A stretch of 33,997 nt of DNA from an uncultured Alistipes sp. (GTDB lineage Bacteria; Bacteroidota; Bacteroidia; Bacteroidales; Rikenellaceae). The first letter of the stretch is position 1. Every line of letters starts with the position of its first letter. Position numbers and translations under genes: made by a program. A model generated the notes under the pieces. That model worked only from the letters and a program-made list of their open reading frames with translations. It searched no databases and was not told the origin of the DNA. The stretch covers positions 1-33,997 of the forward strand of contig CAMWIG010000001.1 in the NCBI GenBank assembly GCA_947174295.1. The letters are read 5' to 3'. Positions 21,099-26,117 of this stretch are shown in pieces.

Positions 21099-21102
21099 CA
21101 CG

Positions 21103-21897
21103 ATGAAAGCACTGCTGCACAGAATACTCTACCGCACGCTGCCGCTCGAAGGCTACCTCCGCACGGTGAGCCGGCTCTTCTTCGTCGCCTACCGTCTCGG
21201 GCTGGGACGCCGCTCCCCCGCCACGGAGTATGTCTACCACCTGCCGCAGATTGTCCGCCGCGGCGACACGTGCATCGACATAGGCGCCAATCTGGGCTAC
21301 TACTCGCGGCCGCTGTCGCAAATCGCCGGTCCCGAGGGCCGCGTCTACGCCGTGGAGCCCGTGCCGGTCATCGGCCGGGTGCTGCGCCGCAACCTGCGCG
21401 GCTGCCGCAACGTCGAGATACTGCCCTACGCGCTGGGCGGGGAGAACCGTCCCGTGCGGATGTCGAACGACTCGGCACGCACCACGGGCTACTTCGGCAC
21501 GGGGCAGAACTACGTCGACGACAGCGGCGCCGGGGCGTGCGCCACGTTCGAGGCCGAGATGCGGCGCGGCAGCGAGCTCTTCGCCGGACTCGAACGGCTC
21601 GACTTCATCAAGTGCGACATCGAGGGCTACGAGCTGCACGTCATGCGCGAGCTGTGGCCTCTGTTGGAGCGCTTCCGCCCCACGGTGCTCATCGAGACCG
21701 GCGGCAGCAACCGCCCGCAGATAATCGAGCTCTTCCGCTCGCTGGGATACGAGGGCTACACCCTCGACCGCGGCCGCCGCGTGCCGCTCGCGCCCGACAG
21801 CGGGAAGGACATTGTCTTTCGAATTCAAAATTCAGAATTCAAAATTGAGGATTCGAAGACCGGGATAAAAAAGATTGAACGACAAATTAAAGTATAA
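21103..21897 (+). CDS. FkbM-family SAM-dependent methyltransferase
   Basis: CIDIGANLGYYS, VYAVEPVP, LPYALG, LDFIKCDIEGYE; the C-terminal tail runs through a heptamer array. Confidence 0.9.
   Translation: MKALLHRILYRTLPLEGYLRTVSRLFFVAYRLGLGRRSPATEYVYHLPQIVRRGDTCIDIGANLGYYSRPLSQIAGPEGRVYAVEPVPVIGRVLRRNLRGCRNVEILPYALGGENRPVRMSNDSARTTGYFGTGQNYVDDSGAGACATFEAEMRRGSELFAGLERLDFIKCDIEGYELHVMRELWPLLERFRPTVLIETGGSNRPQIIELFRSLGYEGYTLDRGRRVPLAPDSGKDIVFRIQNSEFKIEDSKTGIKKIERQIKV
21821..21848 (+). repeat. Heptamer array, forward arm 1
   Basis: GAATTCA AAATTCA GAATTCA AAATTGA inside the 3' end of the FkbM gene. Confidence 0.9.
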
Positions 21898-21972
21898 TGC
21901 AATTCGAATTTCGGGATTCTCCGACTGACTCCGCGCCGGCTGCCGCATACCCGGCAACCCGCATACGGTCAA

Positions 21973-22007
21973 TCAATTTTGAATTTTGAATTTTGAATTT
22001 TGAATTT
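21973..22007 (-). repeat. Heptamer array, reverse arm 1
   Basis: TCAATTT (TGAATTT)x4, ending 6 nt before the trmD ATG. Confidence 0.92.
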
Positions 22008-22013
22008 CACGAT

Positions 22014-22718
22014 ATGCGTATAGACATAATCTCCTCCGTTCCCGAACTGATGACCTCGCCTCTGAGCGAATCCATCCTGCGCCGCGCACAGGAGAAGGGC
22101 CTGGTCGAAATCGTCGTGCACAACCTCCACGACTACGCCCACGACCGCCGCAAGACCACCGACGACTATCCGTTCGGCGGCGAGGCGGGCATGGTCATGA
22201 AGTGCGAACCGGTATTCGAACTCGTCGAGAAGCTCCAGTCGGAACGCCGCTACGACGAAATCATCTACACCTCGCCCGACGGCATCCGCTACGACCAGCA
22301 CGAGGCCAACCGCCTCTCGACACTCGAAAACATCATCATCCTCTGCGGCCACTACAAGGGCATCGACCACCGCATCCGCGAGCACCTCGTCACGCGCGAG
22401 ATCTCGATCGGCGACTACGTGCTCACGGGCGGCGAGCTGGCGGCCTGCATCATCGCCGACTCGGTGGTGCGGCTCATCCCGGGCGCGATAGGCGACGAGT
22501 CGTCGGCCCTGACCGACTGCTTTCAGGACGACATGCTCGCCCCGCCGGTCTACACGCGCCCTGCCGAGTTCCGCGGCTGGAGCGTTCCCGACGTGCTGCT
22601 CTCGGGCAACTTCGCCGAAATCGAGAAGTGGCAGGACGAGCAGTCCTACGAACGAACGCGCCGCCTGCGGCCGGACCTTCTGGAAATTCAGAATTCAGAA
22701 TTCAAAATTCAAAATTAA
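22014..22718 (+). CDS. trmD: tRNA (guanine-N1)-methyltransferase
   Basis: MRIDIIS start, [70 protein letters not shown], then repeat-encoded [11 protein letters not shown]. Confidence 0.97.
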
Positions 22719-22730
22719 TCGAATTCCGAA
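22684..22730 (+). repeat. Heptamer array plus unique extension, forward arm 2 (left arm of the 44-bp inverted repeat)
   Basis: AAATTCA GAATTCA GAATTCA AAATTCA AAATTAA TCGAATTCCGAA; contains the trmD stop codon. Confidence 0.93.
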
Positions 22731-22743
22731 ATCCGACAGCAGC

Positions 22744-23103
22744 ATGAAGGCCGGCAACATCGTACTCGACAAAAGTTTCTCGTTCGCAGTCCGCACAGTG
22801 AACATATACAAGGCATTGCAGAACGGGCAGGAGTACACTCTCTCGAAACAGCTGCTGCGCAGCGGAACGAGCATCGGCGCCAATATCCGCGAGGCCCTGC
22901 GCGGCCAGTCTCGCAACGACTTCATATCGAAGATGAACATAGCCCTGAAAGAGGCCTACGAGACGGAATACTGGCTCGAACTGCTGCATGCGACAGGTTA
23001 TCTGGACAAACCGCAGTTCGACGACGCGTTCGCGGAGTGCCGCGACCTGACCAACATACTGTCGAAGATAATCATATCTTCAAGACGAAACGATAATGTC
23101 TAA
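22744..23103 (+). CDS. Four-helix-bundle protein (23S rRNA IVS-protein / TIGR02436-like family)
   Basis: 119 aa; KSFSFAVR, LSKQLLRSGTSIGANIREA, SRNDFISKMNIALKEAYETEYWLELL, characteristic of this family. Confidence 0.92.
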   Translation: MKAGNIVLDKSFSFAVRTVNIYKALQNGQEYTLSKQLLRSGTSIGANIREALRGQSRNDFISKMNIALKEAYETEYWLELLHATGYLDKPQFDDAFAECRDLTNILSKIIISSRRNDNV

Positions 23104-23114
23104 CTCTCTCGATA

Positions 23115-23158
23115 TTCGGAATTCGATTAATTTTGAATTTTGAATTTTGAATTTTGAA
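23115..23158 (-). repeat. Reverse arm 2 (right arm of the 44-bp inverted repeat)
   Basis: TTCGGAATTCGA TTAATTT (TGAATTT)x3 TGAA; reverse complement of 22687-22730 with 2 mismatches; ends 8 nt before the lpxB ATG. Confidence 0.93.
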
Positions 23159-23166
23159 CTGATAAT

Positions 23167-24315
23167 ATGAAATATTATCTCATTGCCGGCGAGCCGTCGG
23201 GCGACCTGCACGGCGCCAACCTGATAAAAGGGCTGAAAAAGGCCGACCCCGAGGCTGAGTTCCGCTTCTGGGGCGGCGACAAGATGGCCGAGGCGGGCGG
23301 TGCGGAGAACCTGCGCAAGCACTACCGCGAGACGTCGTTCTTCGGCATCGTCAACGTGCTGCTCAACATGCGCACCATCTCGCGGCAGATGCGCGAATGC
23401 CGCGCCGACATCGAGAGCTACGCACCCGACGTGCTGATACTCATCGACTACCCGGGCTTCAACATGAAGATGGCCCGCTTCGCCCACGAGCGCGGCATCC
23501 GCACCTTCTACTACATCGCCCCCAAGGTGTGGGCATGGCGCGAGCACCGCGTGAAGGCCATCCGCCGCTACGTCGACCAGCTCTACATCATCTTCCCGTT
23601 CGAGCGCGAATACTTCGCACGCCACGGCATCGACCCCGTTTTCGAGGGCAATCCTCTGGTCGACGCTCTGGCCGCACGCCGCGGCACGCTTCCCTCGCCC
23701 GAGGAGTTCCGCCGCCGCAACGGACTCGACGAGCGCCCCATCGTGGCGCTTCTGGCAGGCAGCCGCCGCGGGGAGATCCGCGACAACCTGCCCCTCATGG
23801 CCGAGCTGTCGCGCCGCTTCCCCGACCGGCAGTTCGTCGTGGCGGGAGTCTCGTGGCTCGACCGCGCGATTTACGAGAAGTACATGGCCGGCAGCGACAT
23901 ACGCTACGTCTGCGACCAGACCTACGAGACGCTCCGCGCCGCCGAGGCGGCCGTCGTGACGTCGGGCACGGCGACGCTCGAAACGGCGCTTATGAACATT
24001 CCCGAGGTGGTCGTCTACCGCACCTACGAGTGGCAGGTTCGCCTGCGGCCCTATGTGCTGAAAGTGCCGTTCGTGTCGCTCGTGAACCTCAACCTCGGGC
24101 GCGAAGCGGTACGCGAAATCATACAGTCGACACTCGACGTCACCGAGGCCGAGGCCGAGCTGCGCGCCATACTCGCCGACGGCTCGAAACGCGAGAAGAT
24201 GCTCGTCGACTTCGACGAGCTGCGAGTGGTAATCGGCAATGCGGGCGCCAGCGAACGCTTCGCCAGGCGAATGGTGGAGGAAATTCAAAATTCAAAATTC
24301 AAAATTCAGAATTAG
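23167..24315 (+). CDS. lpxB: Lipid-A-disaccharide synthase
   Basis: MKYYLIAGEPSGDLHGANL, ILIDYPGFN, YYIAPKVWAWR, IFPFE, FEGNPL, LLAGSRRGEI, VTSGTATLE, then repeat-encoded [11 protein letters not shown]. Confidence 0.97.
   Translation: MKYYLIAGEPSGDLHGANLIKGLKKADPEAEFRFWGGDKMAEAGGAENLRKHYRETSFFGIVNVLLNMRTISRQMRECRADIESYAPDVLILIDYPGFNMKMARFAHERGIRTFYYIAPKVWAWREHRVKAIRRYVDQLYIIFPFEREYFARHGIDPVFEGNPLVDALAARRGTLPSPEEFRRRNGLDERPIVALLAGSRRGEIRDNLPLMAELSRRFPDRQFVVAGVSWLDRAIYEKYMAGSDIRYVCDQTYETLRAAEAAVVTSGTATLETALMNIPEVVVYRTYEWQVRLRPYVLKVPFVSLVNLNLGREAVREIIQSTLDVTEAEAELRAILADGSKREKMLVDFDELRVVIGNAGASERFARRMVEEIQNSKFKIQN
24281..24315 (+). repeat. Heptamer array, forward arm 3
   Basis: (AAATTCA)x4 GAATTAG; the last three bases are the lpxB stop codon. 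Confidence 0.92.
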
Positions 24316-24396
24316 CGACCGACGACCGGCTCCTCAGGACGCGAGCCGTACCCGACGACGTATTGGCATCCGAACGACACCGCACACACAAAACGC

Positions 24397-25143
24397 ATGA
24401 GTCCGACACCCTACATAATCATGGCTGCCGTTTGGGGCCTCGCCGGCGCGTTCGTCGCCCGCTGGCCGGAGACGATGGCAGGCTACAACACGATGCCGCC
24501 CGAACGGCGCGCCGCCGTCGACATACGCGGCGCGGGAGGTTTCGCCGCACGCGCGTTCCACCTCTCGGCCGTCGTATCATTAGCCGGAGCCGCTGCCGGC
24601 GAGCAACTCGGCCGCACGATGCTGATGCTCCCCATAGGGATAGTGCTCGCCGCCGCGGTGGCGGGACAGCGCTACGACATGTACGTCATGGCCCGCCGCG
24701 TCCGCCACAACAAGGAGCGCTTCATGCCGCTGCTGCTTGTCGGCGACGAGTCGGAACGAATGATACGCAGCTACCTCGACCGTGCGGAGCTCTACGTCTG
24801 CCGCCGGTACGGGCTGTTCGGCCGGCCGATTGCCGTCTGCGCCGTTACGGACGATGGCGGCGGAGTCTTCGAAGTGAAGAACCTCGCCGTCGACGCCGCA
24901 TTCCGCAGCCGCGGACACGGACGACGGATGCTCGCCGCCATGGCGTGGCGCTGCCGCCGCGGAGAGTGGCTCACGCTCGGCACGGGCGAAACGCCCTCGA
25001 CGCTGGCGTTCTACCGCTCGTGCGGATTCCGCGAGTACGGACGCATCGCCGGCTTCTTTACCGACAACTACGATCGGCCGATAGCTGAGGAGGGCGTCAC
25101 GCTGCGCGACATGATACTGCTAAGGAAACGTCTGCGGAGCTGA
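24397..25143 (+). CDS. Fusion of a DUF3784-like membrane domain and a GNAT N-acetyltransferase
   Basis: N-terminal hydrophobic helices with MAGYNTMPPERRAAVD; C-terminal KERFMPLLLVGDESERMIRSYL, FEVKNLAVDAAFRSRGHGRRM (acetyl-CoA motif), GTGETPSTLAFYRSCGF, FFTDNYDRPI. Confidence 0.75.
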   Translation: MSPTPYIIMAAVWGLAGAFVARWPETMAGYNTMPPERRAAVDIRGAGGFAARAFHLSAVVSLAGAAAGEQLGRTMLMLPIGIVLAAAVAGQRYDMYVMARRVRHNKERFMPLLLVGDESERMIRSYLDRAELYVCRRYGLFGRPIAVCAVTDDGGGVFEVKNLAVDAAFRSRGHGRRMLAAMAWRCRRGEWLTLGTGETPSTLAFYRSCGFREYGRIAGFFTDNYDRPIAEEGVTLRDMILLRKRLRS

Positions 25144-25160
25144 CTCCGCCCAACGACCAT

Positions 25161-25491
25161 ACGACGCGGAAGGGACTACTCCGTGTATTTCCCTTTCGCA
25201 GAGAAAGAGACGGGGCGGAAGGCGCCCTATGCACGAAACCGCTTTTCGATTTTAGAGAGGCGGATTTCGACACGACGACTGCACGACGCGCAAGGGACAT
25301 ACTCCGTGTATTTCCCTTTCGCGGAGAAAGAGACGGGGCGGAAGGCGCCCTATACACACGGAAGCCGCTTTTCGATTTTAGGGAGGCGGATTTCGACACG
25401 ACGAATGTACGACGCGGAAGGGACATACTGCTCGTATTTCCCTTTCGCGGAGAAAGAGACGGGGCGGAAGGCGCCCTATAAAATCGAAAAG
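25161..25491. repeat. Tandem array of about 2.6 copies of a structured ~122-126 bp intergenic unit (REP/MITE-like)
   Basis: A ~70-bp core ACGACGCG.AAGGGAC.TAC...GTATTTCCCTTTCGC.GAGAAAGAGACGGGGCGGAAGGCGCCCTAT starts at 25161, 25283 and 25409, with near-identical linkers between copies. Confidence 0.9.
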
Positions 25492-25493
25492 AG

Positions 25494-26117
25494 ATGAAGA
25501 TTATTTGCATAGCCAGAAACTACTCCGACCATGCTGCGGAGTTGAGCAACATCGCGGCAGGCAGCGATGAACCCGTATTTTTCATGAAGCCCGACACGGC
25601 GCTTCTGCGCAACAACGACCCTTTCTACATCCCGCGATTCTCGAACGAAGTGCACTACGAGTGCGAACTGGTGGTGAGAATCAACCGCGTGGGCCGCGCC
25701 ATCGAGGAGCGGTTCGCACACCGCTACTACGACGAGGTGGGCCTCGGCATCGACTTCACGGCCCGCGACCTGCAACGCCGTGCCGCCGAGGCAGGACTTC
25801 CGTGGGAAGCGGCCAAGGCATTCGACCGCTCGGCGGCGCTGTCGCCGGAGTTCGTGCCGCTGGCCGAGCTGGGCGGCGACGTGCAGAGGCTGCATTTCGA
25901 GCTGCTCGTCGACGGCGAGGTGCGCCAGCGGGGCGACACGTCGCAGATGCTCTCGTCGGTCGACCGCATCATCTCGCATGTGTCGAAATTCATCACGCTC
26001 AAAATGGGCGACCTGATATACACCGGAACACCGGCCGGCGTCGCCGCCGTACACCCGGGCGAGGTGCTCGTCGCCAGGTTGGAGGGCCGCACGCTGCTGG
26101 ACTTCGACGTAAGGTAA
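25494..26117 (+). CDS. Fumarylacetoacetate hydrolase family protein
   Basis: MKIICIARNYSDHAAEL, PVFFMKP, VHYECELVV, GIDFTARDLQ, PWEAAKAFD, TLKMGDLIYTGTPAGV. Confidence 0.93.
   Translation: MKIICIARNYSDHAAELSNIAAGSDEPVFFMKPDTALLRNNDPFYIPRFSNEVHYECELVVRINRVGRAIEERFAHRYYDEVGLGIDFTARDLQRRAAEAGLPWEAAKAFDRSAALSPEFVPLAELGGDVQRLHFELLVDGEVRQRGDTSQMLSSVDRIISHVSKFITLKMGDLIYTGTPAGVAAVHPGEVLVARLEGRTLLDFDVR

What the first reader, a model, noticed from the sequence alone, without database searches (positions are those of the whole stretch)
22684..23167. Four-helix-bundle gene in the loop of a 44-bp inverted repeat between trmD and lpxB: a candidate mRNA 'intervening sequence' cassette
Seen: 22687-22730 and 23115-23158 are reverse complements over 44 nt, made of heptamers plus a unique 12-nt inner extension (TCGAATTCCGAA/TTCGGAATTCGA). 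The only two mismatches (G at 22691 and 22698) face T in the partner arm. In the plus-strand transcript they are G-U wobbles, so the stem would be unbroken as RNA but imperfect as DNA. The loop holds little beyond the 119-aa four-helix-bundle ORF. Established: members of this protein family were first found inside 23S rRNA intervening sequences, which are stem-bounded inserts excised by RNase III. The family shares its fold with Avd of diversity-generating retroelements, and its function is unknown. Inference: this is a small, possibly mobile cassette that inserts between genes of an essential operon and loops itself out at the RNA level, perhaps with RNase III cleavage, so flanking genes are undisturbed. 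The protein may bind or propagate the heptamer stem. No transposase, integrase or RT is present in the window. I cannot verify how much of this is already published.
Basis: partly seen in the sequence, partly recalled or inferred. Interest (0 to 1): 0.85.

Follow-up and report, generated by a model that had tools for sequence, protein, structure and literature searches.

The report
Pentamer gene with five-unit repeat arms
A small gene of unknown function sits between two housekeeping genes, bracketed by mirror-image runs of five 7-base repeats; it is likely a tiny mobile element whose predicted five-part protein would grip those repeats, which would link a large unexplained protein family to the unexplained 7-base repeats of bacterial genomes.

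Summary
The inverted repeat and gene are real (42 of 44 pairs, two G-U; TIGR02436/PF05635; 57% identical to the five-chain structure 2RLD). It is one copy of a widespread cassette, which this scan has reported before on other genomes. This genome has 59 arrays of the same heptamer, 15 as inverted pairs, only one holding the gene. Arrays peak sharply at five units. Of 91 relatives, 10 carry a cassette at trmD-lpxB, from at least three protein lineages with different heptamers (single origin rejected, p-AU 8e-11). Others show gene-less pairs, apparent scars or short empty spacers. Also, 32 of the 44 left-arm bases lie inside trmD, so a cut there would remove its stop codon. Best reading: a selfish, enzyme-less cassette whose pentamer recognises five-unit arms and borrows a host function to insert at stop-start spacers. 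Binding and the moving enzyme are untested. I found no paper describing it in eight searches.

The parts
22684..22730 (+). Left arm: five AATT cores at 7-nt spacing (22685-22716) plus a 12-nt inner extension; its first 35 nt are the last codons and stop (22716-22718) of trmD
22744..23103 (+). Four-helix-bundle gene, 119 aa, TIGR02436/PF05635; GC3 0.73 against 0.84-0.86 in neighbours
23115..23160 (+). Right arm, reverse complement of the left arm; five cores (the outermost reads AGTT on the minus strand); the 44-nt stem ends 8 nt before the lpxB ATG
22014..22718 (+). Host gene trmD; about ten C-terminal residues ([10 protein letters not shown]) are read from the left arm
23167..24315 (+). Host gene lpxB; its own 3' end is another arm read in frame ([10 protein letters not shown])
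21821..22007 (+). Gene-less arm pair (21821-21848 and 21973-22007, 124-nt loop) at the FkbM-methyltransferase/trmD junction
24281..24315 (+). Solo five-core arm overlapping the lpxB stop

Best explanation
This is likely a minimal selfish cassette, one four-helix-bundle gene between two inverted five-unit heptamer arms, whose predicted pentameric protein would bind one unit per subunit and would rely on a host enzyme to copy the cassette into the short stop-to-start spacers of housekeeping operons. Shown: the anatomy; its recurrence across phyla; five units per arm; repeated occupation of the same junction by different lineages; purifying selection on the gene; many gene-less arms of the same unit in carrier genomes. 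Inferred: pentamer (from 2RLD, 2GSC, Avd); binding to the arms (about 0.6); recognition of the A-rich strand at each end, so a single-stranded DNA rather than RNA step (about 0.55); co-transcription with the host operon as the source of expression; loss of the gene or the whole cassette by hairpin-promoted deletion between AATT cores, leaving gene-less pairs, solo arms and short scars. The enzyme that inserts it is not identified.
For: Architecture: 59 of 72 genus genes and 64 of 77 loci from at least 11 phyla (63 with period 7) have inverted arms. Five units: in this genome arrays with 4/5/6 cores number 7/49/5 against 0 in shuffles; a sixth core occurs in 13 of 100, 5 of 90 and 1 of 14 arms; cores read A(A/G)T(T/G) equally in both arms. 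Pentamer: 2RLD, five chains, 57% identity, TM 0.87; 2GSC TM 0.8; Avd 4DWL TM 0.76; all five Avd protomers contact one RNA stem-loop through flipped-out bases (10.1101/2023.10.23.563531, passages). Mobility: 10 of 91 relatives filled, 9 changes on the host tree; one origin rejected, p-AU 8e-11; 72 genes fall at about 29 junctions. Selection: dN/dS 0.03-0.10 in 10 of 14 measurable pairs. Gene and arrays go together: 23 of 25 gene-bearing against 5 of 34 gene-less high-quality genomes have 10 or more five-core matches; all 11 genomes with an AAATTCA-type cassette and all 7 with an AAAAGTG-type cassette (or its sister protein) have that unit genome-wide. Relics: gene-less AAAAGTG pairs at trmD-lpxB in G155, G055, G049 sit in the clade of the filled G023; 20-27-nt scar-like spacers in G065, G074, G044, G147 are nested among filled genomes.
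Against: No binding or transposition has been observed. No transposase, integrase or RT is in the cassette; none of PF00078 or PF01797 in this genome (84.5% complete). No target duplication or matched filled/empty strain pair was found. Loops of the 14 gene-less pairs show no trace of the gene and little likeness to each other, although their arms are near-perfect, which simple decay does not explain. Arrays persist without a detected gene in 28 of 93 genomes, and this genome has a second family (AATTAG-type, about 22 arrays) with no cognate gene found. Two close pairs give dN/dS near 0.8-0.9 at very low dS, two give 0.20-0.25. Five units could also reflect copying of a fixed-length end rather than pentamer binding. 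Kin are not independent, so the co-occurrence p-values overstate.
Confidence: 0.5

Rival explanations
1. One reading: an mRNA intervening sequence that folds into a long stem and is cut out by RNase III, as in 23S rRNA, possibly spreading through an RNA copy with a borrowed reverse transcriptase and the protein acting like Avd.
For: The stem folds strongly and C-D is the best pairing among the five local arms (-59 against -30 to -39 kcal/mol). RNase III is present. The Coxiella IVS has terminal inverted repeats, heptamers before the ORF and RNase III cleavage in vitro (PMC4990558, passages). The gene is co-oriented with the upstream gene at 25 of 25 junctions with an identified neighbour. This genome's own pairs lean to G-U.
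Against: No general G-U bias. Transversion mismatches dominate (123 and 83) and only 5 of 80 exact five-core pairs are unbroken as RNA; real pairing is no better than unit-shuffled pairing (157 vs 156.5; 176 vs 170). A cut in the outer 32 bp would leave trmD without a stop; 7 genes of this genome end inside an arm. Arrays do not track RT genes (24 of 50 vs 51 of 101). Co-orientation is also expected from the need to be transcribed.
Confidence: 0.2
2. A host-adopted regulator: the pentamer binds the arrays on mRNA at stop/start junctions and tunes translation or decay of housekeeping operons and of its own gene.
For: 45 of 59 arrays abut or overlap a stop (29) or start (16); purifying selection; near-perfect arms around unrelated loops; the same role was proposed for TAACTGA repeats (PMC4679880, abstract, introduction, passages).
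Against: The gene is patchy and repeatedly replaced at one junction by lineages with other units; arrays outlast the gene; post-stop and pre-start arms are complementary sequences on the mRNA, so one protein would read only half of them; dozens of 33-nt sites still need a copying mechanism.
Confidence: 0.2
3. An old resident gene inherited vertically and often lost, with arms produced by replication slippage of an AT-rich microsatellite.
For: Within lineages the cassette is inherited at one site (for example G161, G131, G107, G006). Slippage was proposed for bacterial heptamers (Mrazek et al. 2007 as cited in PMC4679880).
Against: Single origin at trmD-lpxB rejected; copy number peaks at five instead of falling off; both arms always share a unit in opposite orientation across 11 phyla; many relatives have no arrays at all.
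Confidence: 0.05

Closest known systems
ORF-bearing intervening sequences (IVS) of rRNA, e.g. the Coxiella burnetii helix-45 IVS with S23p (PMC4990558, passages; also PF05635 ORFs in CPR 16S/23S inserts, 10.1101/2024.02.27.582315, passages)
   Same: PF05635 ORF, about 430-480 nt, terminal inverted repeats, heptamer repeats just before the ORF, patchy distribution, ORF-less versions at the same sites.
   Different: Sits in a protein-coding operon, overlapping a stop codon; both arms are five-unit heptamer arrays; the ORF is under purifying selection; dozens of gene-less arms in the genome; excision untested here.
Avd of diversity-generating retroelements (4DWL, 8UB7; 10.1101/2023.10.23.563531 and PMC10053308, passages)
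   Same: Same fold (TM 0.76, 14% identity); pentameric nucleic-acid-binding barrel.
   Different: No RT, template or variable repeat nearby; no hit to NF033474. The one Avd-like gene beside an RT that I examined has no arms (L204).
REPIN-RAYT systems (PMC3116915, abstract)
   Same: One cognate gene plus many gene-less inverted doublets and singlets in intergenic space, family-specific repeat per gene.
   Different: No HUH transposase; arms are tandem heptamers, not palindromes; placed at stop/start spacers; loops unrelated.
Bacterial heptamer repeats: TAACTGA repeats (PMC4679880), cyanobacterial STRR (recalled), long SSRs of Mrazek et al. 2007 (seen only as cited)
   Same: 7-nt units in short runs, one orientation just before start codons and the reverse after stop codons.
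   Different: That paper does not mention four-helix or intervening-sequence genes (0 hits in the main text; supplements not read) and offers no transfer mechanism; here the repeats are the ends of a gene cassette.

Membership tests
rRNA intervening sequence (S23p type) | Located inside an rRNA gene | tested here: not met
   Between trmD and lpxB; no Rfam match in 21700-25600
rRNA intervening sequence (S23p type) | Terminal inverted repeats able to form a long stem | tested here: met
rRNA intervening sequence (S23p type) | PF05635/TIGR02436 ORF in the loop | tested here: met
rRNA intervening sequence (S23p type) | Excision by RNase III without ligation | not testable with these tools
   RNase III gene present; no RNA data available to lay on the locus
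Diversity-generating retroelement (Avd) | Avd fold | tested here: met
   4DWL TM 0.76
Diversity-generating retroelement (Avd) | Linked reverse transcriptase with template and variable repeats | tested here: not met
   No PF00078 in G000 (84.5% complete); neighbours are trmD and lpxB
REPIN-RAYT | Cognate HUH (Y1) transposase | tested here: not met
   No PF01797 in G000; the cassette protein is all-helical
REPIN-RAYT | Many intergenic inverted doublets and singlets of a gene-specific repeat | tested here: met
   15 pairs and 29 solos; unit tracks the resident cassette
IS / MITE | Transposase in an autonomous copy | tested here: not met
   Only ORF is PF05635
IS / MITE | Target-site duplication | tested here: inconclusive
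   None evident by eye; no close filled/empty pair
IS / MITE | Non-autonomous copies share internal sequence | tested here: not met
   Loops largely unrelated
Bacterial intergenic heptamer repeats (TAACTGA/STRR type) | Short 7-nt tandem runs polarised to start and stop codons | tested here: met

The most novel reading that the evidence does not exclude
A new class of mobile element with no catalytic gene: a pentameric Avd-like protein reads five heptamers at each end of its own cassette, one per subunit, and mobilises it into operon junctions and rRNA genes; rRNA intervening sequences, DGR Avd and the dispersed heptamer repeats of many bacteria are all offshoots of it.
Probability: 0.35. Interest if true: 0.9.

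Novelty: new variant of a known kind. Interest (0 to 1): 0.7.

Why it matters
If true it gives a first testable ligand (five A(A/G)T(T/G)NNN units) for PF05635/TIGR02436, a large family with solved structures and no known function, and a source for the polarised heptamer repeats of bacterial genomes that published work leaves unexplained. It would also show that rRNA intervening sequences are one landing place of a wider element, and that such elements add repeat-coded tails ([10 protein letters not shown]) to essential proteins.

Tried and rejected
RNA reads: no RNA holder listed for window 21100-24400. Rfam: no match. Promoter/terminator scan: nothing above chance; it does not cover Bacteroidota promoters. 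Gene remnants in gene-less loops: none by HMM, nhmmer or tblastn. RT as helper: no association with arrays or gene. G-U bias: four counts on overlapping sets; one search gave 46:26 (p 0.02) but had a faulty five-core filter with misregistered windows and was redone, where the two larger sets show no bias. Weak PF05635 hits as the missing cognate genes: of 20 loci fetched, 5 were recognised by my profile; three checked are TIGR04258 suffix proteins, whose flanks show longer (about 9-nt) units by eye, and one is Avd-like beside an RT. The stop/start polarity was considered as evidence for RNA-level targeting and rejected: an inverted pair reads the same on both strands. No complex prediction was run, since a homo-oligomer would pass by likeness to 2RLD. 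Literature: eight searches found no paper joining this gene family to heptamer arms in mRNA operons; subscription journals and supplements were not covered.

Full report
Observation. The two arms are reverse complements over 44 nt with mismatches at 22691 and 22698, both G against T. The RNA fold keeps the whole stem, z = -6.8. The loop holds a 119-aa TIGR02436/PF05635 gene; the flanks are trmD and lpxB. The host is a Bacteroidales member by inference: the best GTDB hit of the protein is labelled Alistipes.

The genome. A scan for three or more AAATTCA units found 59 arrays in 2.07 Mb; block-shuffled sequence gave 0 where 41 were observed (first 60 of 257 contigs). Thirty arrays form 15 close inverted pairs, always A-rich arm first; one pair holds the gene, the only PF05635 match in the assembly. 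The 14 other loops (55-274 nt) have no gene remnant and are largely unrelated. With my own codon-model gene calls (imperfect at starts), 45 of 59 arrays abut or overlap a stop (29) or a start (16); 8.6% of random intergenic positions lie within 20 nt of a gene end on one side. Seven genes end inside an arm with an IQNS(K/E)FKIQN-like tail. Sites cluster mildly (16 of 44 within 8 kb, mean 7.4, p 0.0125). Array length peaks at five AATT cores: 7, 49 and 5 arrays with 4, 5 and 6 cores, none in shuffles.

The genus. PF05635 scored over the cut-off in 60 of 151 genomes. I took 72 of the 76 over-cut-off matches; 59 have inverted arms above a shuffle control, with many different units shared by both arms of each cassette. 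They fall at about 29 junctions. At 29 representative junctions the upstream neighbour is co-oriented in 25 of 25 cases where Pfam or NCBIfam identified it, and the downstream neighbour in 20 of 23; two sister genes lie against their flanks. dN/dS was 0.03-0.10 in 10 of 14 measurable pairs, 0.20-0.25 in two and 0.8-0.9 in two with dS under 0.03; three more pairs were saturated.

The trmD-lpxB junction. Of 110 loci examined, 91 genomes had trmD (or the cassette) next to lpxB; 10 hold a full cassette (in G107 trmD is off the contig). On a TrmD+LpxB tree the filled state needs 9 changes, no more clustered than shuffles. The ten proteins are 43-91% identical and carry AAATTCA, ACAATTC or AAAAGTG arms; holding them as one clade is rejected (52 rows, p-AU 8e-11). 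The group was defined by site but after I had seen the first tree; the divergent subfamily, long branches, two near-duplicates and short rows were left out. Gene-less AAAAGTG pairs (G155, G055, G049) lie in the clade of filled G023, and 20-27-nt spacers that look by eye like the two outer ends joined (G065, G074, G044, G147, G153, G101) occur, four of them nested among filled genomes. Hot junctions recur: this genome's gene-less arrays touch 4 of 38 gene ends that host full cassettes elsewhere, against about 83 of 3260 ends overall (p 0.015).

Gene and arrays. Ten or more five-core matches occur in 47 of 58 gene-bearing and 28 of 93 other genomes, and in 23 of 25 against 5 of 34 high-quality ones; several gene-bearing exceptions use units outside the pattern. 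RT presence is unrelated. Kin are not independent. Beyond the genus, 64 of 77 GTDB loci with usable flanks (80 returned) have arms, 63 with period 7, median 33 nt, in 11 named phyla; 19 of 77 also score in direct orientation because AATT is palindromic.

The wobble test. G-U against A-C mismatches in sense orientation: 59:56 in 59 genus cassettes, 12:6 by site (p 0.24); 44:36 outside the genus; in fixed five-core register 63:49 (41 pairs) and 26:30 (39 pairs), with 83 and 123 transversion mismatches and only 5 of 80 pairs unbroken as RNA; true pairing is no better than unit-permuted pairing. Copies within one genome share ancestry, so I read the lean as inherited. Each arm appears to match a consensus on its own, A(A/G)T(T/G)NNN five times, rather than to be kept paired.

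The protein. AlphaFold gives four helices, pLDDT 93, matching 2RLD (five chains, 57% identity, TM 0.87), 2GSC and Avd. 2GSC is a homopentamer (PMC4990558 and PMC10053308, passages), and all five Avd protomers contact one RNA stem-loop through flipped-out bases (10.1101/2023.10.23.563531, passages). Five subunits and five units per arm is the main reason to infer binding; the idea that the protein reads its own arms came to me from earlier finding e1-2372739, and e1-9967355 reports the same five-unit count elsewhere.

Mechanism. Most likely a selfish, enzyme-less cassette: the pentamer would grip the A-rich strand at each end, a host function would insert it at an AT-rich stop-start spacer, the operon would transcribe it, and hairpin-promoted deletion would remove gene or cassette. 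Insertion chemistry is unknown: no RT or Y1 transposase was found in this 84.5%-complete genome. Routine RNase III excision is possible but would cost trmD its stop unless the cut fell in the inner 12 bp (inference from the sequence). A regulatory role is not excluded.

Known work. Closest are ORF-bearing rRNA IVSs, Avd, REPIN-RAYT (PMC3116915, abstract) and TAACTGA repeats (PMC4679880, abstract, introduction and passages). It works like an IVS in build and like a REPIN system in its gene-plus-doublets population, but is a member of neither. Eight searches found no description of the cassette in operons; supplements and subscription journals were not seen. PMC8700078 (passages) only lists such genes. 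This scan has noted the same design in many other genomes (1013 findings held the search words).

Verdict. Observation confirmed; cassette interpretation supported; RNA-wobble and harmless-excision arguments not supported. New variant of a known kind, interest 0.7.

Noticed in passing
window 25153-25489: A 126-nt unit in about 2.7 tandem copies between the DUF3784/GNAT gene and the fumarylacetoacetate-hydrolase-family gene; one more copy on contig C38 (74%) and single copies at the trmD-lpxB junction of G011 (81%) and near lpxB in G121. A second, unrelated kind of intergenic repeat.
   Followed up: partly
G000 contigs C4, C14, C15, C31, C38, C42, C44, C46 and others: A second heptamer family (AATTAG/AATGAG type, about 22 arrays) with no cognate gene found in the assembly; the unit matches cassettes at the chloride-channel/ychF junction of other genus members.
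   Followed up: partly
L200:774-1319, L208:754-1302, L192:713-1258, L210: Longer (about 182 aa) four-helix-bundle proteins, three confirmed as TIGR04258 suffix type, are flanked by repeats of about 9 nt (by eye), inverted in at least L200 and L210: a sister cassette type.
   Followed up: partly
L103 (G009) trmD-lpxB gap, 767 nt: The same junction holds a tandem array of a ~115-nt repeat; other relatives hold unrelated genes there (G002, G070, G075, G085, G054, G146), so the junction is a general insertion hot spot.
   Followed up: no
L025 (G001), L170 (G135), L160 (G089): At trmD-lpxB the two ends carry arms of different heptamer families around a 1.1-1.3-kb insert, suggesting successive invasions.
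   Followed up: no
L089 (G052): A 77-bp near-perfect inverted repeat that extends past the heptamers, like the window's 12-nt extension; may reflect recent copying of one arm onto the other.
   Followed up: no
window 24397-25143: Fusion of DUF3784 and a GNAT acetyltransferase domain directly after lpxB.
   Followed up: no
G000 array-adjacent genes: Many look like core genes (polA, valS, lon, murG, def, secA, mraY, nusA, purL, pyrD); these names are recalled from N-terminal sequences and come from no call.
   Followed up: no
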